64,000 bases of DNA from Azospirillum sp. (GCA_020249045.1 JADCGK010000015.1:4944-68943); one strand, 5' to 3'; positions 31,292-49,593 are shown, counted from the stretch's first letter. Notes: a model not told the origin generated them from the sequence alone. A program made the numbers and translations.

Positions 31292-32149
31292 ATGCGTCTG
31301 GCGGTCGTCACCGACATCCACCACGGACGGGTCACGTTCGTGAAACAGGGGCCGCGCGCGCTCGGCTTGCTCGAGGCCGCCCTGCGCCGGGCGCGCGAGG
31401 CCAAGGTCGACGCGGTCGTCGAACTCGGCGACCGCATCTCGGACGTCGATGCGGCGGCCGATTTCGCCCTGGAGAGCGAAGTCGGCCGCGTTTTCGCCGA
31501 GAGCGGCCTCGCGCGGCATCACATCTGCGGCAACCACGATCGCGCGCATCTTTCCGCCGATCGCAACGCCGTGGCTTTGAACGCCCCGTTGGGCACGCGG
31601 GCGGTCGAACTCGGCGACATTCGGTTGGCGTTCTGGGAGCCGGATGTGTCGCTGTCGCGCGCGCGGGGCTTTTCGCTCGCGCCGGGCGACCTCGAATCGC
31701 TGCGCGATCTGTTGGGACGAAGCGATCGGCGTACGATCCTGTTCAGTCACGCGCCCCTATCCGGCCACTCGATGCGCGGGAATTACTGGTTCGAGAACAA
31801 TCCCGCGCACGCGACCTACGCCCAAATCGACGACATCCGAAAAATCCTTGCCGAGGCGCCGTGCCCGCTGCTCGCGATCGCCGGTCATGTGCATTGGAAT
31901 TCGGTCGCCGACGTCGACGGCACGACCCACTTGACGCTCCACTCGCTGAGCGACAGTACGTTCAGCCATCCAGAGCCGTCGGGCGCCTTCGGCTGGTTGA
32001 CGGTCGAAGCCGATCACGTCTTATGGCGGGTCGACGGTCTCTCGCCGGTCGCGATGGAGCTCCCGTTTCCAGCGGCGAAATCGAGCCGCCCGGCGACATT
32101 GCCGCGCTTTTCCGACCTGGCGAAGGGTGCTGACCTGATCTCCGCCTAA
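31292..32149 (+). CDS. Metallophosphoesterase (calcineurin-like)
   Basis: …VVTDIHHG…, …GDRISD…, …GNHDR… and …GHVHWN… are metallophosphatase motifs. Confidence 0.7.
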   Translation: MRLAVVTDIHHGRVTFVKQGPRALGLLEAALRRAREAKVDAVVELGDRISDVDAAADFALESEVGRVFAESGLARHHICGNHDRAHLSADRNAVALNAPLGTRAVELGDIRLAFWEPDVSLSRARGFSLAPGDLESLRDLLGRSDRRTILFSHAPLSGHSMRGNYWFENNPAHATYAQIDDIRKILAEAPCPLLAIAGHVHWNSVADVDGTTHLTLHSLSDSTFSHPEPSGAFGWLTVEADHVLWRVDGLSPVAMELPFPAAKSSRPATLPRFSDLAKGADLISA

Positions 32150-32463
32150 CGCGCGGCGGGCTCCGGTGGCGGGGGAAGTTCGCCGAGCGCGGCAAGGCCC
32201 AGGGCACAGCCGCAAAACGGGCAATCGCTGGCCAAGGCCAGATCGCGGGCCTGGGTCTCGGGCAGGCCGCGGCCCTCCAGTTCGGCGATCATCGCATCGA
32301 TCTGGCGCCGGTGTTCGTTGCGCGCTTCGCAAGCGGCGATCACGAGCCGCTGGCGTGGGGCGTCCATTTCCTCGATGCGCAAGGCCAACGCCGCCGGCGC
32401 AACGGCCGGGACGGCGGCCAAACCCAACGCGGTACGGAGCATCTGACGGCGGGTGTTCGACAT
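32146..32463 (-). CDS. Small Tat-signal protein with CxxC motif (hypothetical)
   Basis: MSNTRRQMLRTALGLAAVPAVAPAALA followed by …CPFCGC…. A good RBS (GGAGG) precedes it, and it converges on the previous gene with a 4-nt overlap. Confidence 0.5.
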   Translation of the reverse strand: MSNTRRQMLRTALGLAAVPAVAPAALALRIEEMDAPRQRLVIAACEARNEHRRQIDAMIAELEGRGLPETQARDLALASDCPFCGCALGLAALGELPPPPEPAAR

Positions 32464-32560
32464 GGGGCCTCCGGGCTATCCGATTAATATAGGGCCGTTA
32501 TCCGGGCTTGCCAAATCCCCAGCGGACCGCCACATACCCCCGGTCACTGTTTTGTCCCCC

Positions 32561-33280
32561 ATGCCCCTGGTTCGCATGCCCTTCCGGCGTTTACTGGCTG
32601 TTCTCCTGGCCCTGGCCTTTACCGCCGCCATTTTCGCGGCGCCTGCATCGGCCGCCGGTCAGGCGATGCGCGGCGTGCCGCCCGAGGGGCGCTTGGAATT
32701 CTCGGTCGTCAAGTCCGGGGCCGAAATCGGCCGGCACGCGATCCGTTTCTCCGAGAAAGACGGCGCCTTGATCGTCGATATCGAGGCGAGTTTGCGCGTG
32801 CGCTTCGCCTTCGTCACGGTCTACCGCTACGCCCAGCGTACGCGGGAAACCTGGCGCGACGGGGCGCTGGTGGCGTTCGAAAGCGATATCGACGACAACG
32901 GCACGCCCTTTCGTGTGCGCGCCGAGCTGCGCGAGGGCGCGCTGCACGTGAACGGACACGAGGAAAAGCTGGCGCTTGCCCGCGGGACGCATCCGTTGAG
33001 CTATTGGAATCCGGATTTGATGCGTCAATCCAAAGGGATCGACCTGCAGTGGGGGTCGCTCGCCGAACTCGACGTCGCCGAACGGGGCATCGAACGGCGT
33101 AAGGTGCGCGGCGCCGAGGTCGAAACCCGGCGCTTCAACATGAAGGGCACGGAAGTGAAGGCCGGCAAGCGCCAGCCCAAACCCTGGCTGGATGTCGACG
33201 CGTGGTACACGGCCGAAGGCAAGCTGGTCGGCATGGCGTTCCATTATCGCGGCTTCGATTTCGACTACGTGCTGCAGTGA
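32561..33280 (+). CDS. Hypothetical secreted protein (DUF6134/DUF3108-like)
   Basis: A signal peptide (…MPFRRLLAVLLALAFTAAIFAAPASAAGQA) with a beta-rich, conserved-looking remainder. Confidence 0.55.
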   Translation: MPLVRMPFRRLLAVLLALAFTAAIFAAPASAAGQAMRGVPPEGRLEFSVVKSGAEIGRHAIRFSEKDGALIVDIEASLRVRFAFVTVYRYAQRTRETWRDGALVAFESDIDDNGTPFRVRAELREGALHVNGHEEKLALARGTHPLSYWNPDLMRQSKGIDLQWGSLAELDVAERGIERRKVRGAEVETRRFNMKGTEVKAGKRQPKPWLDVDAWYTAEGKLVGMAFHYRGFDFDYVLQ

Positions 33281-33311
33281 ACCGTCCGGCGGGCGGGGGC
33301 GTATCGTGACC

Positions 33312-34046
33312 ATGGAAATCGCACCCGTCTGGATCACCGGCGCCTCGTCGGGCATCGGCCGCGGCCTCGCGCTCAAACTGGCGCGCGAAGGCCGCAAGGT
33401 CGTCGTCTCTGCCCGCTCGGCCGAAGCGCTTGCCGATTTGGCGCGCGAACACCCCAACCTTGCCGCCTGGCCGCTCGATACGACCGACGCCGACGCATGC
33501 GCGGCGGCCATCGCCGGAATCGAAGCCGCGCACGGCAAGATCGCCCTCGCCGTGCTCAACGCCGGCACGCATATCCCCACTCCGGCCGCCGATTTCCGGA
33601 TCGCCGACGCCAAACGGCTGATCGACGTCAACCTGACGGGCACCGTCAACGCCCTGGCCCCGCTGTTGGGCCGCCGCACGCGGCACATCGCGATCGTCGC
33701 CTCGGTCGCCGGCTATTCGGGTTTGCCGACGGCCGCGATCTACGGCGCCACCAAAGCGGCCCTCATCAACATGTGCGAGGCGCTGAAGCCCGAGTGCGAC
33801 GCGCTGGGCATCAAGCTCCAACTCGTCGATCCCGGCTTCGTCCGCACGCCGCTGACGGACAAGAACGAGTTTCCGATGCCGTTCCTGATGGAGCTCGACG
33901 CGGCGGTCGACGCGTTCGCGCGCGGGCTCGCCGCCGACAGGTTCGAAATCGTCTTCCCGCGCCGCTTCGCCCTCATCCTGAAATTCTTGCGTTTGCTCCC
34001 TTACGGGCTCTATTTCCGGCTCGTCCGCCGCATGACGGGAGTTTGA
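33312..34046 (+). CDS. Short-chain dehydrogenase/reductase (SDR)
   Basis: TGASSGIGRG Rossmann motif and the catalytic YGATK. Confidence 0.85.
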   Translation: MEIAPVWITGASSGIGRGLALKLAREGRKVVVSARSAEALADLAREHPNLAAWPLDTTDADACAAAIAGIEAAHGKIALAVLNAGTHIPTPAADFRIADAKRLIDVNLTGTVNALAPLLGRRTRHIAIVASVAGYSGLPTAAIYGATKAALINMCEALKPECDALGIKLQLVDPGFVRTPLTDKNEFPMPFLMELDAAVDAFARGLAADRFEIVFPRRFALILKFLRLLPYGLYFRLVRRMTGV

Positions 34047-34050
34047 CCGA

Positions 34051-34485
34051 ATGGAGCTGCGCGCCGCCTTGGACCGCTACGCCCGTTTCTACGAAACGAT
34101 GTCGCGGGCCGATCTCGAGACGCTCGACCGGTTCGTGACCGAGGACGTGCGCTTCAAGGATCCGTTCAACGACGTGACCGGCGTGGACGCGATGGCGCGG
34201 TGCCTCGCCATGGCCTACGATCACGGCACGCCGAAATTCGAGGTTCTGGACCGCGCCGCCTCCGAACGGGCGGGCTACCTGCTGTGGCGCTATACCTCCA
34301 CGCCGAAGGGCGCCAGCGTTCCCGCTTGGATCGTCGAGGGCATGAGCGAGGTCCGCTTCGCGCCCGACGGCCGGGCCGTCGAGCATATCGACCACTGGGA
34401 TTCGGGCGAGCAGTTCTACCTTCGCCTGCCGATCATCGGGTGGCTGGTCGGCAAGGTGCGCGCCAGGCTCAAGGTTGGCGCTTAA
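34051..34485 (+). CDS. NTF2-like/SnoaL-like family protein
   Basis: A 144-aa ORF immediately after the SDR, with a typical SnoaL-like size and hydrophobic pattern. Confidence 0.6.
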   Translation: MELRAALDRYARFYETMSRADLETLDRFVTEDVRFKDPFNDVTGVDAMARCLAMAYDHGTPKFEVLDRAASERAGYLLWRYTSTPKGASVPAWIVEGMSEVRFAPDGRAVEHIDHWDSGEQFYLRLPIIGWLVGKVRARLKVGA

Positions 34486-36345: not shown

Positions 36346-37537
36346 GGGCGACCTGCGTCACGTCCGTCGAACCCGAGCGGAACCCGGCCTCGCAATAGGC
36401 GAGGTAGAACTCCCACATGCGCTTGAAGCGGACGTCGAAACCCAGCGGCTCGATCTCCGTCCAGCGCGACTGGAAGCGCGCGTTCCATTCGGCGAGCGTG
36501 CGCGCGTAGTCGAGGCCGAAGAACTCCTGCTTGGCGAGCGTCAGGCCCGCGCGTTCGTATTCGCGCGCCAGAGCGGCGTTGGACGGCAGCATGCCGCCCG
36601 GGAAGATGTAGCGCTGGATGAAATCCACGCCCGAGCGGTAGGAGTCGAAGAACCGGTCGGCGATCGTGATGATCTGCAATGCCGCCCGCCCGCCCGGCGC
36701 CAGCGCCTCGCGCAACTTGCCGAAATAGGCGGGCCAGTATTTCTCGCCCACCGCCTCGAACATCTCGATCGACGCGATGCGGTCGTAGCGTCCCTCGACG
36801 TCGCGATAGTCGACGAACTTCGCCTCGATCCGTTCGCCCAGCCCTTCGCTTTGGACCTTGGCGCGGGTGTGCTCGAGCTGCTCCTTCGACACCGTGATTG
36901 CGGTGACTTGGGCCTGATATTCCTTGGCGAGATAGGCCGCAAAACCGCCCCAACCGCAGCCGATTTCGAGCACGCGCTGGCCGGGTTTCACGTCCAGCTT
37001 TTCGGCCATGCGGCGGAACTTGGCGCGCTGGGCATCCTCGAGATCGGCAATGCCCGGTTCGTAGACCGCCGAGGAATACGCCATCGTCGGGTCGAGCCAC
37101 CGCGAATAGAAGGCGTTGCCGAGGTCGTAGTGGTAGGCGATGTTCTTCTTCGATCCGGTGCGGGTATTCGCACGCAACGCATGCCACAAACGGCGCGCGA
37201 GGTTGAGCGCTGGCGCGAGCGCGCTGGCTTTGCCGTAATGCAGATCGTTGCATGCCGCTTCGTTGCGCGCGGCGAGTTCGAGCACGGCGGCCAAATCGGG
37301 CGTGTCCCAATCCCCGTCCATATAGGCTTCCGCGAACCCGACATTCCCGCCGAACATCAACCGGCGCGCGGCGCGGCGATGGCGGACGATCAGCTTGGCC
37401 GACGGCCCCTCGACCGCCCCTTGGAAAATCCGCGACGCCCCGCCCGGCAGGACGATTTCGAGACGCCCGATTTCGATGCGCTGGGCCGCGAGCAGCAAGG
37501 CCCCCATCGCCCAACCGTTCGAATCAGCTTCGCGCAT
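36332..37537 (-). CDS. cfa: Cyclopropane-fatty-acyl-phospholipid synthase
   Basis: SAM-binding VLEIGCGWGG and CFA synthase family similarity along its length. Confidence 0.9.
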   Translation of the reverse strand: MREADSNGWAMGALLLAAQRIEIGRLEIVLPGGASRIFQGAVEGPSAKLIVRHRRAARRLMFGGNVGFAEAYMDGDWDTPDLAAVLELAARNEAACNDLHYGKASALAPALNLARRLWHALRANTRTGSKKNIAYHYDLGNAFYSRWLDPTMAYSSAVYEPGIADLEDAQRAKFRRMAEKLDVKPGQRVLEIGCGWGGFAAYLAKEYQAQVTAITVSKEQLEHTRAKVQSEGLGERIEAKFVDYRDVEGRYDRIASIEMFEAVGEKYWPAYFGKLREALAPGGRAALQIITIADRFFDSYRSGVDFIQRYIFPGGMLPSNAALAREYERAGLTLAKQEFFGLDYARTLAEWNARFQSRWTEIEPLGFDVRFKRMWEFYLAYCEAGFRSGSTDVTQVALVRP

Positions 37538-39718: not shown

Positions 39719-41131
39719 TCAAGCGGCCTCTTTCAATGATTGGAACGCCGCCAACGCGCGCGCGCGCGCTTCGCCGTGATCCACGATGGGGTTGGGATAG
39801 GTGACGCCGAGTTTCACGCCCGCGCGCGCCAGCACGTCGGCCGGCGCCTCCCACGGCGTGTGGATGTGTTCGGCGGGCAGACGGGCGAGTTCGGGCACGA
39901 AGCGGCGGACGTAAGCGCCGTCGGGATCGAATTTGGCGCCCTGCAGCATGGGATTGAAGATTCGGAAATAGGGTGCGGCATCCGCCCCGCAGCCCGCGAC
40001 CCATTGCCAGCTCGCCGCGTTGTTGGCGAGATCCGCGTCGACCAGCGTGTCCCAGAACCAATCCTCGCCCGCGCGCCAGGGTTGGAGCAGATGCTTGACG
40101 AGGAACGACGCCGCGATCATCCGAACGCGATTGTGCATCCAGCCGGTTTGCCACAACTCGCGCATGCCCGCGTCGACGATGGGATAACCGGTCGCACCTT
40201 TGCGCCACGCGCGCAAATGCGCGGGATTCTCGCGCCAGGGGAAATCGCGGAATTCGGTGCGCAGCGCCGTCTCGGGCAGATCGGGCAATTGGAACAGCAG
40301 ATGATGCGAGAACTCGCGCCACCCGAGTTCGGCGACGAACTTGGTCGACGACGCCCCCGCATGGAAGCATTGGCGCGGCGAGATTTCGCCGAAATGCAGA
40401 TGCGGCGACAGCCGCGACGTCGCCTCGATATCCGGCCGGTCGCGCGAAGACGCGTAACCCGACAGCGCCGTCGCCACGAATGAAGCGAGCCGCGCTTGCG
40501 CACCCGCCTCACCCGGCGTCCAAACCGAAAAGCCGCCCGCCCAATCGGGCTTGGTCGGCAGCAGCGCCCAAGCATCGAGCGCATCCGACGCCGGCCATGC
40601 GCCCGGCGCCGACGCCTTCTTGGGGGCGGGCACGGCCGCCGACGGCGGTTCGGCGGCAAGACACGCCTTCCAGAACGGCGTAAACACCCGGAAGGGCGTG
40701 CCGGTCTTCGACACGATGGTCCACGGCTCGAACAGCAAATTCGCGTTGAAGCTTTTGGCGACGAGACCGCGCGCCTCCAGATCGGCTTTGATCGTCTTGT
40801 CGCGCGCGACCGCGAAAGGCTCGTAGCAGCGGTTCCAGTGCACGCCCGCGGCTTTGGTTTCGCCGATCAACGCATCCAAGCACGCCGCGGATCTGCCCCG
40901 GCGCAAGATCAGCTTCAGCCCGAGGTCGCCGAGATCGCGCGCGAGCGACGCGAGCGAATGATGCAACCACCAGCGGCTGGCGCCGCCCATCCGCCACACG
41001 CCCGGCGCGTCGTCGTCGAGGATGTAGACCGGCACCACGGGCGCGCCGGTCGCGATCGCCTCGCGCAAAGCCGGATTGTCGGAAAGCCGCAAATCCTGAC
41101 GGAACCAGACCAGAAGAGGCGAAAGGGACAT
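39719..41131 (-). CDS. phrB: Deoxyribodipyrimidine photolyase (CPD photolyase)
   Basis: An FAD-binding C-terminal domain (…TGYPIVDAGMRELWQTGWMHNRVRM…WQWVAGCGADAAPYFRIFNP…). Confidence 0.9.
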   Translation of the reverse strand: MSLSPLLVWFRQDLRLSDNPALREAIATGAPVVPVYILDDDAPGVWRMGGASRWWLHHSLASLARDLGDLGLKLILRRGRSAACLDALIGETKAAGVHWNRCYEPFAVARDKTIKADLEARGLVAKSFNANLLFEPWTIVSKTGTPFRVFTPFWKACLAAEPPSAAVPAPKKASAPGAWPASDALDAWALLPTKPDWAGGFSVWTPGEAGAQARLASFVATALSGYASSRDRPDIEATSRLSPHLHFGEISPRQCFHAGASSTKFVAELGWREFSHHLLFQLPDLPETALRTEFRDFPWRENPAHLRAWRKGATGYPIVDAGMRELWQTGWMHNRVRMIAASFLVKHLLQPWRAGEDWFWDTLVDADLANNAASWQWVAGCGADAAPYFRIFNPMLQGAKFDPDGAYVRRFVPELARLPAEHIHTPWEAPADVLARAGVKLGVTYPNPIVDHGEARARALAAFQSLKEAA

Positions 41132-41165
41132 GCGGACGGAGAGCGTTACCGGTTGAGGATGAACG

Positions 41166-41195
41166 TCTTTACGCCCCGGGACCCGGGACGGATCA
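41166..41195 (-). promoter_or_regulatory. Putative ECF sigmaE(RpoE)-type promoter upstream of the photolyase operon
   Basis: The minus strand reads TGATCC-N17-GTAAAGA ~35 nt upstream of the photolyase ATG. This matches the TGATCC…TAAGA pattern reported for singlet-oxygen sigmaE promoters. Confidence 0.4.
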
Positions 41196-41903
41196 CTCGC
41201 GCGGCGGCTTCGGAAGGCGCGCGATCGGCGCCAAGCGGTCGGCCGGGAACAAATGCAGGCGATCCCGACCCGTCATCAATACCCGAAACCGCGTGCGTCC
41301 GAACAGGCCCGCGATCGCCCGATCGAGCGCATCGAGACCGCCGGCATACGCGCCGAACGCCGGCATCACCATCCGCCGTCCGTCATGCGCGAAACACGGC
41401 GCCACGACCCGCCCTGCAGACGTGGTGACGCAGGCCTTCGGATGGAAGTGCCCGACGATCTCGCCCGGCGATAAAACCGCACCGGCCGGTGCGTGACGCA
41501 GAACGAGGCGCCCTTCCGCGACCTCGGTTACCGCGCGGCCCCCCAAAACCGACGGTATCGCGGGATCGTGGTTCCCCAGCACCCACACCCAGTCGACCCC
41601 ATCCATCAGCCGGACGAGCATCTCCCGATCCGCAGGCGCGATCCGATCGGCCGCGCCGGTATCGTGGAACGAGTCCCCCAGACAAACGACGCGCGCGGGC
41701 GTGTAGCGCCGGATCAAACGCTGGAGTTCGCCCAACGTGGCGCGGGTGTCGTAGGGCGGCAGCATCACGCCCTTGGCGGCGTACGCCGAGCCTTTCTCCA
41801 AATGCAGGTCCGCCACGACCAAGGTTTTGACCGCCGGCCAATAAAGCGCGCCCGAGGGATCGGCGAACAGCGCCGTGTCTTCGATCGTGATCCGGGCGTG
41901 CAT
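41193..41903 (-). CDS. pdeM: Ligase-associated DNA damage response endonuclease PdeM (metallophosphoesterase)
   Basis: …LVVADLHLEKG… and …VCLGDSFHD…VLGNHD… give the PdeM pattern, and it sits immediately downstream of the Lhr-type helicase. Confidence 0.8.
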   Translation of the reverse strand: MHARITIEDTALFADPSGALYWPAVKTLVVADLHLEKGSAYAAKGVMLPPYDTRATLGELQRLIRRYTPARVVCLGDSFHDTGAADRIAPADREMLVRLMDGVDWVWVLGNHDPAIPSVLGGRAVTEVAEGRLVLRHAPAGAVLSPGEIVGHFHPKACVTTSAGRVVAPCFAHDGRRMVMPAFGAYAGGLDALDRAIAGLFGRTRFRVLMTGRDRLHLFPADRLAPIARLPKPPRE

Positions 41904-44335
41904 CAGAAAAGTTCGCTCTGCGGGTCTTCGGCGGTCGCTTCGTCGATCAGGGCTTGCGCGGCCGCTTCGTCGGCCAACGCGTCTTCGATGGCCGCACCGT
42001 AGATCGCTTCGCGGCCCACTTCCAGCAGCACCGGAACGGCCAATGGCGAAACGCGCGCCAAGCGCCGATGCCGGATCGCGCCGCGGCAACCGCGCAGCAT
42101 CGCGGCCAAACGCTCCAGATCGACCAGGCCGGTCGCCGCATCGGCCCTTGTCGCGCGCAACAGGACGTGATCGGGTTCGTGCTTGCGCAGCACGTCGTAG
42201 ATCAGGTCCGACGAGAAGGTCACCTGCCGGCCACTTTTCTCCTGGCCGGGATGGCGCCGCTCGATCAGCCCCGCGATCACCGCGACGTTGCGGAACGCGC
42301 GTTTGAGCATCGAGGAATCGGCGAGCCACTCCTCGAGTTCGTCGCCGAGAATGTCCTCGGCGAAGAGCTCGGCCGGCCGTTCGGCCGGCTTCAGCGACCA
42401 CACCGCGATCGAGTAATCGGACGCGACGAACCCCAAAGGCCGCAACCCGGTCCGTTCCATCCGCCGTGTCAGCAGCAGACCCAAGGTCTGATGCGCGTTG
42501 CGTCCGGCGAAGCAATAGGCGACCAGAAACCAGCGTCCATGGCGCGGAAAGGTTTCGATCAGCAATCCGGTCCGTTCGGGCAGGGAAGACCGCCGGCGCT
42601 GCAATCCCAGCCATTCCTTCACGTCGCTCGGGAACCCGCGCCACGCGGCGGGATCGGCGAGCAGACCGCGCACCCGGTCGGCGAGTTCGGCCGTGAAGGG
42701 CATCCGCCCGCCGGCGAAGACCGGCACTTTGGGCTGGTCGTCCTTCGCGCGGGAGACTTCGACCGTCGTCTCGCGCAGGCCTTCGTAGCGCAGCACCTGA
42801 CCCGCGAAGGCGAAACTGTCGCCGGGGGCGAGTTGCACGACGAAGTTCTCCTCGATCCGGCCGAGCCGTTTGCCGCGCCGGAAGGCGACGTTGAGCATCG
42901 GCTCCTCGACGATCGTGCCGACGTTGAGCCGGTACTGACGCACGACGAGCGCGCCGGCAACCGTCCAGCGCCCGGCGTCGTCGCGTTTGAGGCGCTTGAA
43001 GCGCTCGTAGGCGCCGAGGGCGTAGCCGCCATCGGCCACGAAGCCGAGCACGCGGTCGAAATCCCCGCGCGTCAACCCGGCATAGGGTGCCGCCCGGCGC
43101 ACATTGGCGTAGGTCGCCTCGGCGTCGAACGGCGCCGAGCACGCGCGCGCCAGAAGATGCTGCGCGAGCACGTCGAGCGCGCCCGGCGGCATCCGCAAGG
43201 GCTCGATCTCGCCCGCTTCGAGGGCCGCGATCGCCGCGCGGCATTCGAGCATTTCGAAGCGGTTGGCGGGCACGAGGATGGCGCGCGACGGCTCGTCGAG
43301 CCGGTGATTGGCCCGGCCCACGCGCTGGATCAGCCGCGCGGCCCCTTTGGGCGCGCCGATCTGAACGACCAGATCGACGTCGCCCCAGTCGATCCCCAGA
43401 TCGAGCGAGGATGTGGCGACCACGGCGCGCAGCTTGCCCGCGGCCATCGCCGCCTCGACCTTGCGCCGCTGTTCGGGCGACAGCGAACCGTGGTGCAGGG
43501 CGATGGGAAGATTGTCGGCGTTGAGCTTCCAAAGCTCGCGGAAGCAGATTTCCGCCTGCGCGCGCGTGTTGACGAACACGATCGCCGAGCGCGCGGCCTT
43601 GAGCGCCAGGTAAACCTCCGGCAGCGCGTGCACGGCCATGTGCCCGCCCCACGGGATGCGCGCTTCGGGCACCAGGATCGAGACCCGCGCTTGGGCCCCC
43701 GCTCCCCCGCGCACGATTTCGGGCGTCGCATCCATTCCGGCGCCGAGATAGCCCGCGAGCTTCGGCGGTTCGGCGACCGTGGCCGAAAGGCCGATGCGGC
43801 GCGCGCGCGGGGCGATGTCGGCCAGCCGCGCGAGATCGAGGGCAAGCAGATCGCCGCGCTTGGTCCCGGCCAAAGCGTGGATCTCGTCGATCACGACCGC
43901 ACGCAATCGGGCGAACGTGGCGGGCGCATCGGGGTATGACAGCAGCAGCGCCAGCGATTCGGGTGTCGTCATCAGGATGTGCGGCGGGGATTTGCGCTGG
44001 CGAACGCGTTTGGCTTGGGGCGTGTCGCCGGTCCGGCTTTCAGCCCGCAGGGGCAGGTCCATCTCGGCGATGGGTCGCTCGACGTTGCGGTGCACGTCGA
44101 TGGCGAGCGCCTTCAAGGGCGAGACGTAAAGCGTGTGCAACCCCGGTGCGGGGTCGGCGGCCAGTTCGACGAGGCTCGGCAGAAACCCCGCCAAAGTCTT
44201 GCCCGCGCCCGTAGGCGCGACCAGCAAGGCCGACCGGCCGGCGCGCGCGTGGTCGAGCAGTGCGGCCTGGTGCGCGCGCAAGCGCCAGCCCCGCGCCGCC
44301 ATCCAGCCCGCGAAGGGTTCGGGCAGGCCGCTCAC
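41903..44335 (-). CDS. Ligase-associated DNA damage response DEXH-box helicase (Lhr-core-like)
   Basis: Walker A (APTGAGKT), DEIH box (VVIDEIHAL) and helicase C motifs, with a C-terminal Lhr extension. The start is approximate (GTG/ATG between 44302 and 44467). Confidence 0.85.
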   Translation of the reverse strand: MSGLPEPFAGWMAARGWRLRAHQAALLDHARAGRSALLVAPTGAGKTLAGFLPSLVELAADPAPGLHTLYVSPLKALAIDVHRNVERPIAEMDLPLRAESRTGDTPQAKRVRQRKSPPHILMTTPESLALLLSYPDAPATFARLRAVVIDEIHALAGTKRGDLLALDLARLADIAPRARRIGLSATVAEPPKLAGYLGAGMDATPEIVRGGAGAQARVSILVPEARIPWGGHMAVHALPEVYLALKAARSAIVFVNTRAQAEICFRELWKLNADNLPIALHHGSLSPEQRRKVEAAMAAGKLRAVVATSSLDLGIDWGDVDLVVQIGAPKGAARLIQRVGRANHRLDEPSRAILVPANRFEMLECRAAIAALEAGEIEPLRMPPGALDVLAQHLLARACSAPFDAEATYANVRRAAPYAGLTRGDFDRVLGFVADGGYALGAYERFKRLKRDDAGRWTVAGALVVRQYRLNVGTIVEEPMLNVAFRRGKRLGRIEENFVVQLAPGDSFAFAGQVLRYEGLRETTVEVSRAKDDQPKVPVFAGGRMPFTAELADRVRGLLADPAAWRGFPSDVKEWLGLQRRRSSLPERTGLLIETFPRHGRWFLVAYCFAGRNAHQTLGLLLTRRMERTGLRPLGFVASDYSIAVWSLKPAERPAELFAEDILGDELEEWLADSSMLKRAFRNVAVIAGLIERRHPGQEKSGRQVTFSSDLIYDVLRKHEPDHVLLRATRADAATGLVDLERLAAMLRGCRGAIRHRRLARVSPLAVPVLLEVGREAIYGAAIEDALADEAAAQALIDEATAEDPQSELF

Positions 44336-44414
44336 GCGCCCGCGAGCGGCCGAGGACGAACGCGGTGCGTCCCACGGACGACCGGACCGGCGAGCGCGCG
44401 CAATCCCAACACCG

Positions 44415-44828
44415 TCATCGCGCGGCCCCCGGATTGAACGCGACCGCCACGTCGTCCGGCGGGGCACCGCCCGTCTCCCGGATCAAGAACGCGGGCCGCC
44501 CGGCGATCATCCGGAAGCTCGCCGTCGCCCCGGGCGGTACGGGCCCCGACTGCACGCGGTTGCGCGCGTCCGCGCAAAAGGCGGTCAACGCGGCGGCGAT
44601 CTCGCCGGCGTCGAAGTCGATGCGCCGTTCCCCGCCCTCGTCGGTCGCCACGATCAGGACGACGCGCAGCGTCCGCGGTTCGCATTGGACGCCCAGGATG
44701 CGGCCCGGCGGCAAAGGGTCCTTAAGCGCGCGCCGGAACGCGGTCAGCGCATTGACGAGTTCGCTTTCGCGCAGCAAGAGCGCGCGGTAGGCCTCGGTGC
44801 CGGGCGGCAAGGTTCGGGGCTTGGCCAT
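44415..44828 (-). CDS. Hypothetical protein (137 aa)
   Basis: Non-repetitive composition, co-oriented and immediately upstream of the helicase. No motif recognised. Confidence 0.35.
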   Translation of the reverse strand: MAKPRTLPPGTEAYRALLLRESELVNALTAFRRALKDPLPPGRILGVQCEPRTLRVVLIVATDEGGERRIDFDAGEIAAALTAFCADARNRVQSGPVPPGATASFRMIAGRPAFLIRETGGAPPDDVAVAFNPGAAR

Positions 44829-44846
44829 CGCGCGCCCTCGTCTGCC

Positions 44847-45215
44847 CTATGCCGCCGCTTCGGACAGGATTTCGAGGGTCAGCGCCTCGGGTTCAACCGG
44901 ACCCGCGACATGCGCCGACAGCGCCAAGCGCCCCTCGATCAGATGCAGATCGCGCGCCGCACGCGGCGGCAGCACCACGCCCACGTCGTGGCAGCGCATC
45001 GCCAAGGCGGCCACCACGGAGTCCTTGTCGTAGACGAAGCGCTTGCGGTCGGGCGGCGCGCCGAAGGACAGCGCGCAGCCCAACGTATCGGGATCGATCT
45101 CGAACAGATCGGCCGGCGTCGTCGGGGTCGACAGGCCGCGCCGTCGGTCGTAGGCGACCAACGCGCCGCGCACGTCGCGCCAGGAAAAAATCACGAATCG
45201 GTACTCGCTCGCCAT
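44847..45215 (-). CDS. Hypothetical protein (~122 aa)
   Basis: MASEYRFVIFSWRDVRGALVAYDRRRG…, co-oriented with the previous ORF. No motif recognised. Confidence 0.35.
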   Translation of the reverse strand: MASEYRFVIFSWRDVRGALVAYDRRRGLSTPTTPADLFEIDPDTLGCALSFGAPPDRKRFVYDKDSVVAALAMRCHDVGVVLPPRAARDLHLIEGRLALSAHVAGPVEPEALTLEILSEAAA

Positions 45216-45284
45216 CCGACGCCCCCAGGTCCGATTTCGCGGCACCCGGCGGGCGGCGTCAAGCGGATCGAACGCGAAGCGCCC

Positions 45285-48200
45285 TCACTCCGCCGGATGG
45301 GCGGCCGGCGCCGCCTTGCGGAAGCGGCGCGAAAGCTCGCGCATGACCACGTAGAACACCGGGGTCAGGAACAGACCGAAGATCGTCACGCCGATCATGC
45401 CAGAGAACACGGCCGTCCCCAGGGATTGGCGCATCTCCGCGCCCGGCCCCGTCGCCGTGACCAACGGAACCACGCCCAGGATGAAGGCGAGCGCGGTCAT
45501 CAGGATCGGGCGCAGGCGCAAGCGGCAGGCCTCGACCACCGCGGCGATCGGATCCTTGCCCTCGTGCTCGAGCTGACGCGCGAACTCCACGATCAAAATC
45601 GCGTTCTTGGCGGCGAGGCCCACGAGCACGATCAACCCGACCTGGACCAGAATGTTGTTGTCGAGCCCGCGGATCATCACGCCGATCAGCGCCGAAAGCA
45701 CGCTCATCGGCACGATCAGCACGATCGCCAGCGGCAGACCCCAGCTTTCGTACTGGGCGGCGAGTGCCAGAAACACGAACACGACCGCCAACGCGAAAAT
45801 CCAGACGGCCGTGTTGCCGACCAGCTTTTCCTGCAGCGCGAGTTCGGTCCACTCGAAGCTGATGCCCGCGGGCAGCGTCTCCGCGGCGAGGCGCTCGATC
45901 GTGGCGATCGCCTGCCCCGAGGAAATTCCCGCCGCCGTCAACTGGATCGGAACGGAGACATAGGCGTTGTAGCGCTGGACCAGATCCGGCCCGGCGGTGT
46001 CGCGAATATCCACGATCGTGCCGAGCGGCACGAGATCGCCTGTCGCCGATCGCACCTTCAACCGCGCGATATCCTCGCGGTCCACGCGATGGACGCGGTC
46101 GGCCTGCGCGCGCACCTGATAGACGCGCCCGAACGCGTTGAAGTCGTTGACGTAAGCGGTGCCGAGATTGAACTGCAACGTCTCGAAGATGTTGCCGATC
46201 GGCACGTTCAGCATCTGCGCTTTGGTCCGATCGATATCGAGATAGATCTGCGGCGTGCCGGCCGAGAAGGTCGTGAATACGCCCACCAGCCCCGGCACCT
46301 GGCGCAAGCGGCCGATGAATTCGTTGGCGACCTCCAGCAGGCGGCGCGGGTCGTTGCCGGTGCGGTCCTGCAATTGCAGCTTCAACCCGCCCAATCCGCC
46401 GATACCCGGCACCGCCGGCGGCGGGATCGGGATGATGAAGGCGTCCTGGATCGACATCGTCCGGCCGAAGACCTGGCGCAGGATGTTGCCCACGCTCAAG
46501 CCCTCGCGCGTGCGTTCGGCGAACGGCGTGAAGCCGGTGAACACGACGGCCGCGTTGGGCGCGTTGGTGAACGTGGCGCCCGAAAAACCCGCGAAGGCGA
46601 CGGCGTCCTTGATGCCGGGCGTGGCCTTCAGGATTTCGCTGGCACGCAGCGTCACCGCGTCGGTGCGTTCGAGCGAAGCCCCGTCGGGCAGTTGGATCGC
46701 CACGATGCCGTAGCCGCGATCGAGCGGCGGAATGAAGCCGCGCGGCACCATCGAGCCGACCTGCACGGTCAGCGCCGCGAGGCCGACGTAGACGCCGAGC
46801 ATCACGAGCTTTCGCTTGGCGACCCAACCGGCCGACCGCGCGTAGCCGTTGCCCATCTTGTCGAAGCTGCGGTTGAACACGCGCGCGAACGCCGCGCCCG
46901 CCTTGCCCAACGGGCCCGTCGGCGCGTGCCCGGGTTCGTGCTTTTTGAGCAGCATGGCGGCCAACGCGGGCGAAAGCGTCAACGAATTGAAGGCCGACAG
47001 CACCGTCGCCACCGCGATCGTGACGGCGAATTGCCGGTAGAACTGCCCCTGCAGGCCGGGAACGAAGGCGGTGGGGATGAACACCGCCGCCAGCACGACG
47101 GCGATGGCGATCACGGCGGTGCCGACCTCGTCCATCGTCTCGTGGGCGGCGTCGCGCGGGCTCATGCCGTTGGCGATATTGCGCTCGACGTTCTCCACCA
47201 CGACGATCGCGTCGTCGACGACGATGCCGATGGCCAGCACCATTCCGAACAGCGTCAGCACGTTCAGCTGGAAGCCGAATTCGAGCATGACCGCGAACGT
47301 GCCGACCAGCGAGACCGGGATGGCCAGGATCGGAATCAACGCCGCGCGCCAAGATTGCAGGAAGACGAGCACGACCAGCGCGACCAGGAAGACGGCTTCG
47401 GCCAGCGTCACGTAGACCGCGTCGATCGATTCCTGGATGAACTCGGTGGGATTGTAGACGACCTGATAGTCCACGCCGACGGGGAAGTCGCGTTTGAGCT
47501 CGGCCATGCGCTTCTGGATCGCGGCGGAGGTCGCGAGCGCGTTCGAGCCCGGCCGCTGGAACACGGCGATCGCCACCGCCGGCTTGCCGTTCAGATATGA
47601 ATTCGTGACGTATTCGCGCGCGCCAAGTTCCACCCGCGCCACGTCGCGCAAGCGCACGATGCGGCCGTCGCCGGAGGACCGGATGATGACGTCGTTGAAC
47701 TGGCGCGGATCGTCGAAACGTCCTTGGGTGAGGATCGGAATCTGAAACGCCGCGCCCTGCGACGGCGGCGTGCCGAGCGCGCCGCCGGAGACCTGGACGT
47801 TCTGTTCGCGCAACGCGCGCACGACATCGCCCGCCGACAACGCGTAGCCGGCCAGCCGTTCGGGATCGAGCCAAACGCGGATCGCGTATTCGCGCGCGCC
47901 GAAGACGAGCAGATCGCCCACGCCGTCGATGCGCAGCAGCTGGTCGCGCACGCGCAGGATCGCGTAGTTGGAGATGTAGAGCTGGTCGTAGCTCTCGTCG
48001 GGCGAGAGCATGTGGACGACCATCATGAGATTGGGCGAGCTTTTCTGCGTGACGACGCCAAGCTGGCGCACGGCGTCGGGCAGGCGCGGCGTCGCGATCT
48101 GGACGCGGTTCTGGACGAGCACCTGGGCGTTGTCGAGGTTGGTGCCCGGCTTGAACGTGATCGTCAGCGCCATGCCGCCATCGGCCGTGGCGTAGGAGGA

Positions 48201-48440
48201 CATGTAGAGCATGTCCTCGACGCCGTTGATCTCCTGCTCCAGGGGCGTGGCGACGGTGGCGGCGACGGTTTCGGCGTCCGCCCCCGGATAGTTCGCGCGC
48301 ACGACGATCGTTGGGGGCGCGATCTCCGGATACTCGGACACCGGCAGCGCGACGAACGCGATGCCGCCCAGGATGACCATGACGATCGAGACGACGATCG
48401 CGAAGATCGGCCGATCGACGAAGAAATGGGCGAAACGCAT
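45285..48440 (-). CDS. RND multidrug efflux transporter permease (HAE1, AcrB/MexB-like)
   Basis: A 1051-aa protein with a 12-TM profile and two large periplasmic loops, AcrB-like throughout. Confidence 0.95.
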   Translation of the reverse strand: MRFAHFFVDRPIFAIVVSIVMVILGGIAFVALPVSEYPEIAPPTIVVRANYPGADAETVAATVATPLEQEINGVEDMLYMSSYATADGGMALTITFKPGTNLDNAQVLVQNRVQIATPRLPDAVRQLGVVTQKSSPNLMMVVHMLSPDESYDQLYISNYAILRVRDQLLRIDGVGDLLVFGAREYAIRVWLDPERLAGYALSAGDVVRALREQNVQVSGGALGTPPSQGAAFQIPILTQGRFDDPRQFNDVIIRSSGDGRIVRLRDVARVELGAREYVTNSYLNGKPAVAIAVFQRPGSNALATSAAIQKRMAELKRDFPVGVDYQVVYNPTEFIQESIDAVYVTLAEAVFLVALVVLVFLQSWRAALIPILAIPVSLVGTFAVMLEFGFQLNVLTLFGMVLAIGIVVDDAIVVVENVERNIANGMSPRDAAHETMDEVGTAVIAIAVVLAAVFIPTAFVPGLQGQFYRQFAVTIAVATVLSAFNSLTLSPALAAMLLKKHEPGHAPTGPLGKAGAAFARVFNRSFDKMGNGYARSAGWVAKRKLVMLGVYVGLAALTVQVGSMVPRGFIPPLDRGYGIVAIQLPDGASLERTDAVTLRASEILKATPGIKDAVAFAGFSGATFTNAPNAAVVFTGFTPFAERTREGLSVGNILRQVFGRTMSIQDAFIIPIPPPAVPGIGGLGGLKLQLQDRTGNDPRRLLEVANEFIGRLRQVPGLVGVFTTFSAGTPQIYLDIDRTKAQMLNVPIGNIFETLQFNLGTAYVNDFNAFGRVYQVRAQADRVHRVDREDIARLKVRSATGDLVPLGTIVDIRDTAGPDLVQRYNAYVSVPIQLTAAGISSGQAIATIERLAAETLPAGISFEWTELALQEKLVGNTAVWIFALAVVFVFLALAAQYESWGLPLAIVLIVPMSVLSALIGVMIRGLDNNILVQVGLIVLVGLAAKNAILIVEFARQLEHEGKDPIAAVVEACRLRLRPILMTALAFILGVVPLVTATGPGAEMRQSLGTAVFSGMIGVTIFGLFLTPVFYVVMRELSRRFRKAAPAAHPAE

Positions 48441-48441
48441 G

Positions 48442-49593
48442 TCAGCGCGCCTCCCGCACCGGGGGCAACTCCACCGGTTGGGGCGTCACGCGCCCGCCCG
48501 GCCGCACGCGCTGCAGACCCGCGATGACGATCGTTTCCGATCCGTCGAGACCCTGGCGGATCACGCGATAGCCGTCGTGCCGCGGCCCCGGGCGCACGAG
48601 CCGCGGGGACACGGTCCCGTCGGCGGCCACGACCCACACGATGCGCCGGTCGAGATCGGCGGCGATCGCCTCGTCGGGCACCAGAACGGCGCGATAGGGG
48701 GTACCGCCGGGAACTTCGACGCGGCCGAACATACCCGGCGCGAGGAACAGATCCTCGTTTTTGACGGTGGCGCGCACGCGCATCGTGCCGGTCGCCTGGT
48801 CGAGCCGGCTGTCGACGAAATCGACCAGCCCCTTGCGGGTCATCTGGCGTTCGTCCGCGACGCCGATCAGCACTTCGATCTCGCTGGGCCGTTCGCGCGG
48901 ATTGGGCAAGCCGCCCGCCGCGCGCACGGAACGCGCGTAGGCGAGATAGGCACGCTCGTCGATGTCGAAATAGAACTTCACCGGGTCGAGGGTGACGATC
49001 GTGGCGAGCAGCGATTGATCGGCGGCGACGAGATTTCCTTCGGACACGAGCTTGCGGCCGATGCGCCCGGAAATCGGCGCGCGCACGTCGGTGAATCCCA
49101 GATTGAGCCGCGCCGTCTCCAGTTCCGCGCGCAGACCCGCGATGTCGGCCTGGGCCTGCAGGAATTGCTGGCGAGTTTGCTCGAGCTGACGTTCGGGCGC
49201 GGTGCCCGAACGCGCCAGACGCTCGTACCGCTCCATGTCGGACCGGAAGAAATCCAGGCGCGTCTGCGCGGCCGTCACGGCCGATTGCGCGCGCGCGAAC
49301 GCCGCGTTGTAGGTGCGCTTGTCGATCACGAACAGCACGTCGCCCTCGCGTACCATCTGGCCGTCGCGGAAGCGCACCGCCTCCAGATAGCCCGACACGC
49401 GCGCGCGCAGATCGACCGACTCGGCCGCTTCGAATCGACCGACGAATTCGTCGCGGTCGACGATCTCCTTGACCACGGGCTTGGCCACGGTCACCGGCGG
49501 CGGCGGAGCGCCCGGCCCCATTTGGGCGGACGCATCGGAAACGCAAACCAGCGCGACGGCCAATACGGCCGTCGGCACGATCCAATTACGCAT
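48442..49593 (-). CDS. RND efflux periplasmic adaptor (membrane fusion protein)
   Basis: A signal/anchor followed by biotinyl-lipoyl, beta-barrel and MP domains (…VRAPISGRIGRKLVSEGNLV…). It sits 1 nt from the RND gene. Confidence 0.9.
   Translation of the reverse strand: MRNWIVPTAVLAVALVCVSDASAQMGPGAPPPPVTVAKPVVKEIVDRDEFVGRFEAAESVDLRARVSGYLEAVRFRDGQMVREGDVLFVIDKRTYNAAFARAQSAVTAAQTRLDFFRSDMERYERLARSGTAPERQLEQTRQQFLQAQADIAGLRAELETARLNLGFTDVRAPISGRIGRKLVSEGNLVAADQSLLATIVTLDPVKFYFDIDERAYLAYARSVRAAGGLPNPRERPSEIEVLIGVADERQMTRKGLVDFVDSRLDQATGTMRVRATVKNEDLFLAPGMFGRVEVPGGTPYRAVLVPDEAIAADLDRRIVWVVAADGTVSPRLVRPGPRHDGYRVIRQGLDGSETIVIAGLQRVRPGGRVTPQPVELPPVREAR

What the first reader, a model, noticed from the sequence alone, without database searches (positions are those of the whole stretch)
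41193..45245. Ligase-less Lhr helicase-PdeM DNA-damage module preceded by two unknown small ORFs
The 'ligase-associated DNA damage response' helicase (Lhr-core) and phosphoesterase PdeM normally sit next to an ATP-dependent DNA ligase and an MBL-fold exonuclease. Here neither is present. The module is flanked downstream by the photolyase stress operon and upstream by two co-oriented hypothetical ORFs (44415..44828 and 44847..45215) with no recognisable motifs. These could be novel accessory components of the pathway, or the ligase and exonuclease are encoded elsewhere.
Basis: inference. Interest (0 to 1): 0.55.

Follow-up and report, generated by a model that had tools for sequence, protein, structure and literature searches.

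The report
Ordinary Lhr-PdeM pair; unrelated small genes
This is a normal two-gene DNA-repair cassette (Lhr-Core helicase plus PdeM/MPE nuclease) that has lost its neighbouring ligase-exonuclease operon, and the two small genes upstream are real but belong to a widespread uncharacterised protein family that is not tied to this repair pathway.

Summary
Lhr-Core (41903-44335, TIGR04121, 1095 bits) and PdeM/MPE (41193-41903, TIGR04123, 215 bits) lie on the minus strand. No ligase or exonuclease is encoded anywhere in the 64-kb window. Two real co-oriented small genes lie upstream.

Two-gene Lhr-Core-MPE clusters without a ligase are already described. In 41 alphaproteobacterial species loci with full flanks, 19 (46%) lack Exo-LigB within 10 kb.

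In a close relative (L022, Lhr 77% identical) the divergent Exo-LigB operon sits exactly between ORF1 and lhr. The window's 79-nt gap is therefore best read as a deletion scar.

ORF1 and ORF2 are paralogs. They belong to an unannotated family (885 clusters) built from an internally duplicated beta-alpha-beta-beta unit. Distant members are stand-alone genes next to gcvP, prfC or a pseudouridine synthase gene, never lhr.

Within the clade, the pair always follows the RND permease. Its downstream neighbour varies: lhr, TauE, or convergent genes.

The photolyase operon has its own conserved sigmaE/ChrR-type promoter. Whether Exo-LigB is encoded elsewhere in the genome could not be tested.

Low interest. 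The unannotated small-protein family is the only mildly new item.

The parts
45285..48440 (-). RND multidrug efflux permease (context). It is the invariant upstream neighbour of the small-ORF pair.
   Evidence: NF000282, 1348 bits. It directly precedes ORF2-ORF1 in every locus that has the pair.
45216..45284 (-). 69-nt RND-ORF2 intergenic spacer, with a possible sigma70-like promoter (TTGACG-N17-CGAAAT).
   Evidence: Inference only. TTGNNN / TATNNG-like elements sit at similar positions in relatives. The consensus scan found no strong promoter.
44847..45215 (-). ORF2, 122 aa. Member of an uncharacterised duplicated beta-alpha-beta-beta family.
   Evidence: Orthologs are 61-68% identical. AF2 pLDDT 81, pTM 0.76. 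Family HMM E 5.8e-27. GC3 0.86.
44415..44828 (-). ORF1, 137 aa. Paralog of ORF2, fast-evolving in this lineage.
   Evidence: BLASTP against ORF2 gives E 3e-6. Orthologs are 45-52% identical. AF2 pLDDT 83. Window-branch dN is 0.30 against 0.09 on the sister branch.
44336..44414 (-). 79-nt non-coding spacer. It marks the site where relatives carry TauE, or a cyclase-like gene plus LigB and Exo. Probable deletion scar.
   Evidence: Synteny breakpoints. Gene orders. No Rfam hit and no terminator.
41903..44335 (-). Lhr-Core DExH helicase (ligase-associated DNA damage response helicase family), 810 aa.
   Evidence: TIGR04121, 1095 bits against a cutoff of 850. Pfam DEAD, Helicase_C, WH_Lhr and DEAD_assoc. 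Motifs GAGKT, DEIH, SAT and QRVGRANH are present.
41193..41903 (-). PdeM/MPE binuclear metallophosphoesterase endonuclease, 236 aa, translationally coupled to lhr (TGATG).
   Evidence: TIGR04123, 215 bits against a cutoff of 150. Motifs DLH, GDSFH, GNHD and GHFHP are present. Start/stop overlap.
41170..41195 (-). RpoE/ChrR-type (sigmaE) promoter TGATCC-N16-CGTA for the photolyase operon. It overlaps the pdeM stop codon.
   Evidence: Only match in the window; 0.18 expected by chance. Conserved at the same junction in 11 of 11 close relatives. Consensus taken from PMC5507510.
39719..41131 (-). Photolyase, first gene of the photo-oxidative stress operon (phr, amine oxidase, DUF1365, CMAS, MFS).
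   Evidence: Pfam DNA_photolyase and FAD_binding_7. Downstream genes.

Best explanation
The locus joins three separate units.

(1) lhr-pdeM is a standard two-gene Lhr-Core/MPE DNA-repair cassette. Lhr-Core is a 3'-5' DExH helicase. PdeM/MPE is a Mn-dependent single-strand DNA endonuclease, translationally coupled to lhr. The partner operon, a divergently transcribed Exo-LigB pair, stood immediately upstream of lhr in the ancestor. It was deleted or relocated in this Tagaea-like (Rhodospirillaceae) lineage and left a 79-nt spacer. The cassette then works on its own or with housekeeping enzymes, as in the many bacteria that have only the two-gene cluster (inferred).

(2) ORF2-ORF1 is a tandem pair of paralogous small soluble proteins from a widespread uncharacterised family. 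The family is seen mainly in Rhodospirillales, and its domain is an internal duplication of a roughly 50-aa beta-alpha-beta-beta unit. The pair sits at the tail of an RND efflux operon. It abuts lhr only because the intervening genes were lost. It is not a dedicated component of the Lhr pathway. Its biochemical role is unknown. My best guess, which is inference only, is a small pseudo-dimeric binding or regulatory protein.

(3) The photolyase operon downstream is a separate sigmaE/ChrR-type transcription unit.
For: Identities: TIGR04121 at 1095 bits and TIGR04123 at 215 bits, both above their cutoffs, with catalytic motifs intact.

[quoted passage not shown] MPE lies next to bLhr in 276 of 319 genomes (PMC8301817).

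Survey of 41 species loci with at least 8 kb on both sides of lhr:
- PdeM adjacent in 40.
- Exo+LigB within 10 kb in 22, absent in 19.

L022 (Lhr 77% identical) has this order: MFP, RND, ORF2, ORF1, then on the opposite strand a cyclase-like gene, LigB (TIGR04120, 724 bits) and Exo (TIGR04122, 432 bits), then lhr, pdeM, phr. Outgroups commonly have Exo-LigB divergent from lhr. The synteny breakpoints fall exactly at the ORF1|lhr junction.

Small ORFs:
- They are paralogs.
- The family has 885 representative clusters.
- The two halves of the domain are homologous (hhalign 97%, E 5.5e-11).
- Seven loci of single-copy members, falling into about five distinct gene neighbourhoods, all lack lhr.
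- The family is found near lhr only in 5 of 41 loci, all with Lhr at least 73% identical.
- No family member occurs in 80 LigB loci.

The sigmaE-type promoter is conserved in 11 of 11 close relatives.
Against: In three relatives (L015, L024, L026) ORF2, ORF1 and lhr overlap by 4 nt or abut. That would fit co-translation and a lineage-specific functional link.

The whole RND-to-phr block is syntenic in the clade. Neither neighbour can therefore be proven to be the functional partner.

Loss of Exo-LigB from the genome, as opposed to relocation, is not shown. The direction of change (deletion here versus insertion in L022) rests on parsimony with outgroups.

Confidence: 0.72

Rival explanations
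1. ORF2 and ORF1 are lineage-specific accessory or regulatory subunits of the Lhr-PdeM repair module. They might compensate for the missing Exo-LigB.
For: They are co-oriented and immediately upstream of lhr in the window. In L015, L024 and L026 there are 4-nt overlaps ORF2/ORF1/lhr. No terminator lies between ORF1 and lhr. Both genes evolve faster in the window lineage, which lost TauE and Exo-LigB.
Against: - The pair coexists with Exo-LigB in L022 and is separated there from lhr by three opposite-strand genes.
- In Tagaea it is separated from lhr by TauE.
- Distant family members are never next to lhr.
- 36 of the 41 full-flank lhr loci have no family member within 10 kb.
- There are no nucleic-acid-enzyme motifs and no fold match.
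Confidence: 0.07
2. ORF2 and ORF1 are tail genes of the RND efflux operon and act with, or regulate, the pump.
For: They directly follow the RND permease, co-oriented, in every locus that has the pair. This holds whatever lies downstream: the window, L001-L008, L015/16, L019, L021, L022, L024 and L026.
Against: - They are soluble proteins with no membrane segment.
- A 69-140-nt gap with promoter-like elements lies before ORF2.
- Distant homologs are not next to RND pumps.
- Synteny within one clade may be inertia.
Confidence: 0.18
3. The small ORFs are spurious high-GC reading frames.
For: Many long non-coding ORFs occur in this 68% GC sequence. There are no database family hits.
Against: - Orthologs and a family of 885 clusters.
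- dN/dS below 1 and GC3 of 0.86-0.89.
- Confident AF2 models with the same topology for both.
- Homologous internal repeats.
Confidence: 0.01

Closest known systems
Two-gene Lhr-Core-MPE cluster (Ejaz and Shuman 2018, as cited in PMC7826289; bLhr with adjacent MPE, PMC8301817)
   Same: An Lhr-Core-only helicase (RecA1, RecA2, WH, Domain 4, no C-terminal extension) is followed directly by a roughly 236-aa MPE/PdeM. No ligase or exonuclease is adjacent.
   Different: Nothing substantive. Here the cassette is followed by a sigmaE-driven photolyase operon. That arrangement was seen in 20 of 41 alphaproteobacterial loci.
Four-gene Exo-LigB-Lhr-Core-MPE 'ligase-associated DNA damage response' cluster (Pseudomonas putida type; TIGR04120-04123)
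   Same: The Lhr-Core and PdeM members score above the equivalog cutoffs. A close relative (L022) still has all four genes at this locus.
   Different: LigB (TIGR04120) and Exo (TIGR04122) are absent from the 64-kb window.
RpoE-ChrR (sigmaE) photo-oxidative stress core regulon (phr, cfa, DUF1365, amine oxidase; Rhodobacter sphaeroides and P. syringae PSPTO_1043)
   Same: A TGATCC-N16-CGTA promoter lies 38 nt upstream of phr, followed by amine oxidase, DUF1365, CMAS and MFS.
   Different: It belongs to the neighbouring operon, not to lhr-pdeM or the small ORFs. No such motif lies upstream of lhr or ORF2.
Tautomerase/MIF superfamily and DNA-clamp domains (folds built from duplicated beta-alpha-beta(-beta) units)
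   Same: The small proteins have a duplicated beta-alpha-beta-beta topology. About 46% of family representatives start with Met-Pro.
   Different: - No profile similarity to human MIF (hhalign probability 0.07%).
- No Foldseek match (TM 0.28 or less).
- Both window proteins lack Pro1.
- This is a resemblance of the secondary-structure string only, recalled from memory.

Membership tests
Lhr-Core / bLhr (TIGR04121) | Equivalog HMM score above the curated cutoff | tested here: met
   1094.9 bits against a cutoff of 850.
Lhr-Core / bLhr (TIGR04121) | Domain order RecA1, RecA2, Lhr winged helix, Domain 4 (DEAD_assoc), with no long C-terminal extension | tested here: met
   PF00270, PF00271, PF19306 and PF08494 cover residues 65-810 of the 854-aa ORF. 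The protein is 810 aa.
Lhr-Core / bLhr (TIGR04121) | SF2 motifs I (GxGKT) and II (DE[VILW]H) | tested here: met
   APTGAGKT and VIDEIH are in the translation.
Lhr-Core / bLhr (TIGR04121) | 3'-5' DNA helicase activity | not testable with these tools
   Biochemistry is required.
PdeM / MPE (TIGR04123) | HMM score above the cutoff, and position immediately downstream of Lhr-Core | tested here: met
   215.4 bits against a cutoff of 150. The TGATG overlap with the lhr stop.
PdeM / MPE (TIGR04123) | Binuclear metallophosphoesterase motifs, including the two His residues essential for nuclease activity in P. putida MPE (His81, His113) | tested here: met
   DLH, GDSFH (His80), GNHD (His112) and GHFHP are present. 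Equivalence to His81/His113 is inferred from motif position, not from an alignment with the P. putida protein.
Four-gene Exo-LigB-Lhr-Core-MPE cluster | ATP-dependent DNA ligase TIGR04120 adjacent | tested here: not met
   tblastn of the L022 LigB against the whole window gave a best E of 0.13.
Four-gene Exo-LigB-Lhr-Core-MPE cluster | MBL/beta-CASP exonuclease TIGR04122 adjacent | tested here: not met
   tblastn of the L022 Exo against the window gave a best E of 1.3.
Four-gene Exo-LigB-Lhr-Core-MPE cluster | Ligase and exonuclease present elsewhere in the same genome | not testable with these tools
   Only 64 kb are available. The metagenome scan with the L022 LigB found no 65-80% identical ortholog from samples that carry Tagaea-like contigs. 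This is a weak negative.
Accessory component of the Lhr/PdeM pathway (small ORFs) | Co-occurrence and synteny with lhr beyond the immediate clade | tested here: not met
   Seven loci of single-copy homologs lack lhr. The family lies near lhr in only 5 of 41 species loci, all close relatives.
Tautomerase / MIF superfamily (small ORFs) | N-terminal Pro1, and sequence or structure similarity to known members | tested here: not met
   - ORF2 starts MAS and ORF1 starts MAK.
- Pro2 occurs in 69 of 149 representatives.
- hhalign against human MIF gives probability 0.07%.
- No tautomerase hits in Foldseek PDB.
RpoE/ChrR-dependent promoter (photolyase operon) | TGATCC-N16-CGTA upstream of a core-regulon gene, conserved in orthologous positions | tested here: met
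   A single match at 41195-41170. Found in 11 of 11 close relatives. sigmaE dependence itself was not tested.

The most novel reading that the evidence does not exclude
The ORF2/ORF1 family is a previously undescribed pseudo-symmetric fold, a duplicated beta-alpha-beta-beta unit with no PDB match. In this Tagaea-like clade the tandem pair would have been recruited as a helper of Lhr-PdeM, for example a DNA-end or nuclease-modulating factor, after or alongside loss of Exo-LigB.
Probability: 0.06. Interest if true: 0.5.

Novelty: new member of a known kind. Interest (0 to 1): 0.2.

Why it matters
The result matters little for DNA-repair biology. The window adds one more example of the already described two-gene Lhr-Core-MPE cassette.

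Comparison with relatives shows that the Exo-LigB operon can be lost cleanly from the locus. This is consistent with Lhr-MPE acting independently of the dedicated ligase.

The modest by-product is a large family of about 110-aa proteins that Pfam and NCBIfam do not cover. It has about 885 clusters at 50% identity and is seen mainly in Rhodospirillales. It has a clear internal duplication and confident predicted structure. It could be registered as a new domain family of unknown function.

Tried and rejected
- Pfam, NCBIfam, PHROGs and PADLOC scans of ORF1, ORF2 and up to 71 family members gave no consistent hit.
- A PDB sequence-profile search gave nothing below E 0.5.
- Foldseek of both AF2 models against the PDB and BFVD gave a best E of 0.016-0.04 and low TM-scores, so no fold assignment. 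The PCNA and SRPBCC hits are at noise level.
- The tautomerase/MIF hypothesis was not supported.
- The LexA box GTTC-N7-GTTC does not occur near the locus. The single window match is at 36369, and 2.6 matches are expected by chance.
- Rfam found nothing in 40900-45500.
- The promoter and terminator consensus scan was not above chance.
- A viral-contig scan for ORF1 relatives found none.
- The metagenome scan for a Tagaea-lineage LigB was inconclusive.
- Ejaz and Shuman 2018 (PMC6231139) is not held in the library, so it is cited only through PMC7826289 and PMC8301817.
Full report
**Observation**

The region lies in 65-74% GC DNA with many spurious long ORFs. On the minus strand the real genes, in order of transcription, are:

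| Gene | Coordinates | Notes |
|---|---|---|
| RND adaptor (MFP) | 48442-49593 | |
| RND permease | 45285-48440 | |
| ORF2 | 44847-45215 | 122 aa; starts at the ATG, because MASEYRF is invariant in orthologs |
| ORF1 | 44415-44828 | 137 aa |
| Lhr-Core | 41903-44335 | 810 aa; GTG start, deduced from the HMM alignment and the conserved xxLPEP N-terminus |
| PdeM/MPE | 41193-41903 | 236 aa; ATG overlaps the lhr stop as TGATG |
| Photolyase | 39719-41131 | |
| Amine oxidase, DUF1365, CMAS, MFS | downstream | |

- Lhr-Core scores 1095 bits on TIGR04121 (cutoff 850). It has the DEAD, Helicase_C, WH_Lhr and DEAD_assoc architecture and the GAGKT and DEIH motifs.
- PdeM scores 215 bits on TIGR04123 (cutoff 150). 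It has the DLH, GDSFH, GNHD and GHFHP metallophosphoesterase motifs.
- tblastn with the LigB and Exo proteins of the nearest relative that has them finds nothing in the 64-kb window; the best E is 0.13.

**Is 'ligase-less' unusual?**

It is not.
- A phylogenomic survey found MPE next to bLhr in 276 of 319 genomes (PMC8301817).
- The ligase of the cluster is LigB-type (PMC7470946), named TIGR04120 in NCBIfam. It is not LigC.

I scanned one genome per GTDB species with the window's Lhr (80 loci; best hits are Tagaea sp. MAGs at 80-81%). I then annotated the loci by tblastn and HMM. Among the 41 loci with at least 8 kb on both sides:
- PdeM is adjacent in 40.
- Exo+LigB lie within 10 kb in 22 and are absent in 19.
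- A photolyase lies within 10 kb in 20.

Conversely, many LigB-Exo pairs in metagenome contigs have no lhr within 5-6 kb.

**What happened at this locus**

L022 is an alphaproteobacterial MAG with Lhr 77% identical to the window's. Its gene order is MFP, RND, ORF2, ORF1, then on the opposite strand a HAMP/cyclase-like gene, LigB (TIGR04120, 724 bits) and Exo (TIGR04122, 432 bits), then lhr, pdeM, phr and amine oxidase.

Exo-LigB transcribed divergently from lhr is also the common state in more distant relatives: L025, L031, L032, L034, L041, L053, L065, L067 and L075.

In the Tagaea MAGs the same slot holds a TauE-family gene, with an extra 90-aa ORF in some. In L015, L024 and L026 nothing intervenes. 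In the window there is a 79-nt spacer.

blastn synteny breakpoints fall exactly at this junction. By parsimony, the ancestral divergent Exo-LigB operon was lost here, and ORF1 came to abut lhr secondarily.

Whether Exo-LigB moved elsewhere in the genome cannot be decided from 64 kb. A metagenome scan with the L022 LigB found one 76% identical hit and then nothing above 60%. No hit came from the samples that hold long Tagaea-like contigs. This is a weak negative.

**The two small ORFs are real**

They are coding:
- GC3 is 0.86-0.89.
- Orthologs exist.
- Pairwise dN/dS is about 0.25-0.5.
- The AlphaFold models are confident: pLDDT 83 with pTM 0.72, and pLDDT 81 with pTM 0.76.

They are paralogs of each other (26% identity over 114 aa, E 3e-6).

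A profile of both finds 885 representative clusters at E ≤ 1e-3, and 140 at E ≤ 1e-10, among 1.84 billion representatives. The consensus is MPxExRxIxFxxxEVxxAL…PLPxG…VAAALIxxCxxxxIPLPxxAxKxL.

Named members come from Niveispirillum, Telmatospirillum, Magnetospirillum, Aliidongia, Tagaea and unclassified Alphaproteobacteria. All are annotated 'hypothetical protein'.

No Pfam, NCBIfam, PHROG or PADLOC model matches.

Both models share the topology beta-alpha-beta-beta-beta-alpha-beta-beta. The N- and C-halves are homologous (hhalign probability 97%, E 5.5e-11). The domain is therefore an internal duplication of a roughly 50-aa unit.

Foldseek finds no significant match in the PDB or BFVD. The other structure libraries were unavailable.

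A tautomerase/MIF-like reading was considered. It rests on the same secondary-structure string and on Met-Pro starts in 46% of representatives. It was not supported.

**The small ORFs are not linked to Lhr**

Single-copy family members on long contigs sit in unrelated places:

| Context | Loci |
|---|---|
| Between XdhC/aldo-keto reductase genes and an MFS and pseudouridine synthase gene | L009, L018 |
| Next to prfC | L011, L017 |
| After gcvTHP | L013/14, L180 |
| Next to a pseudouridine synthase gene | L179 |
| Near DUF3750/GFA and ribonucleotide reductase | L181 |

None of these has lhr or pdeM.

The MAG that carries L022 has a third member beside prfC (L017). Tagaea has a third member 9 kb downstream of lhr on the other strand.

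From the Lhr side, a family member lies within 10 kb in only 5 of 41 loci, all with Lhr at least 73% identical. None occurs in 80 LigB loci or in viral contigs.

Within the clade, the neighbour that never changes is the RND permease immediately upstream. The downstream neighbour changes: lhr, TauE, or convergent genes.

It is met.

The best evidence for a link is the 4-nt overlap chain ORF2/ORF1/lhr in L015, L024 and L026. I read this as a consequence of the deletion, but it keeps a small probability alive for a lineage-specific connection.

**Rate of evolution**

By RND, Lhr and PdeM the window is closest to L005 (87-92% identity). Yet ORF1 is only 52% identical to L005's ORF1, and ORF2 is 63% identical, while L005 and L001 are 74-76% identical to each other.

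Three-point estimates give a window-branch dN of 0.30 for ORF1, against 0.09 on the L005 branch and 0.03-0.05 for the neighbouring genes. Omega is about 0.5.

Window ORF1 has also lost family-conserved residues: the Glu of ExR, a Phe, and the Lys after PLP. It carries a 5-aa insertion in the IPLP motif.

The pair is therefore weakly constrained in this lineage. This does not suggest an indispensable repair partner.

**Transcription units**

A perfect RpoE/ChrR-type promoter (TGATCC-N16-CGTA; consensus from PMC5507510) lies at 41195-41170. It overlaps the pdeM stop codon and ends 38 nt before the phr ATG.
- It is the only match in the window, where 0.18 are expected by chance.
- It is conserved at the same junction in all 11 close relatives examined.

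The photolyase operon is thus a separate photo-oxidative-stress unit. No such motif, LexA box, terminator or Rfam element lies upstream of lhr or ORF2. The RND-ORF2 gap has weak sigma70-like elements at similar positions in relatives; this is inference only.

**Verdict**

The Lhr-PdeM module is an ordinary, already described two-gene cassette. Its ligase-exonuclease partner operon was lost from this locus.

The small ORFs are genuine members of an unannotated, internally duplicated small-protein family of unknown function. They are juxtaposed to lhr by genome rearrangement.

Source organism: an unrepresented Tagaea-like member of the Rhodospirillaceae. The exact PdeM sequence occurs in MAG GCA_020249095.1.

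Noticed in passing
window 41170-41195 (-): An RpoE/ChrR-type promoter (TGATCC-N16-CGTA) overlaps the pdeM stop codon and drives the operon phr, amine oxidase, DUF1365, CMAS, MFS. It is conserved at the same junction in 11 of 11 close relatives.
   Followed up: yes
L019-L098 (Lhr loci of alphaproteobacterial species): lhr-pdeM is followed within 10 kb by a photolyase in 20 of 41 full-flank loci. This recurrent repair/photoreactivation neighbourhood did not appear in the papers I read.
   Followed up: partly
window 44415-44828 (-) compared with L005 10382-10780 and L001 10001-10390: ORF1 evolves far faster on the window's branch (dN 0.30 against 0.09; 52% identity where Lhr is 87%). It has lost several family-conserved residues and gained a 5-aa insertion in the IPLP motif.
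   Followed up: yes
L009/L018, L179, L181: Distant single-copy members of the small-protein family repeatedly lie within one or two genes of an RluA-type pseudouridine synthase gene (PF00849). This could be a conserved neighbourhood or chance.
   Followed up: no
P0252 (238 aa, metagenomic): A rare fusion: the small-protein family domain at the N-terminus, followed by a CheY-like receiver domain. It hints at a signalling context for the family.
   Followed up: partly
L019 21487-21837 (-), L021 21486-21872 (-): Tagaea MAGs carry a third family paralog (128 aa) beyond the photolyase/SDR/SnoaL cluster. The syntenic position in the window (about 32.2 kb) lacks it.
   Followed up: partly
L001 10390-11133; L005 10811-11817: In Tagaea-like relatives a TauE/sulfite-exporter-family gene, with an extra 90-aa ORF in some, occupies the ORF1|lhr junction. 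The junction is an indel hotspot with four different states among close relatives.
   Followed up: yes
window 31292-34485: Convergent with the photolyase operon are a metallophosphoesterase, a DUF6134 protein, a short-chain dehydrogenase and a SnoaL-like protein. The last two resemble members of the sigmaE core regulon cluster.
   Followed up: no
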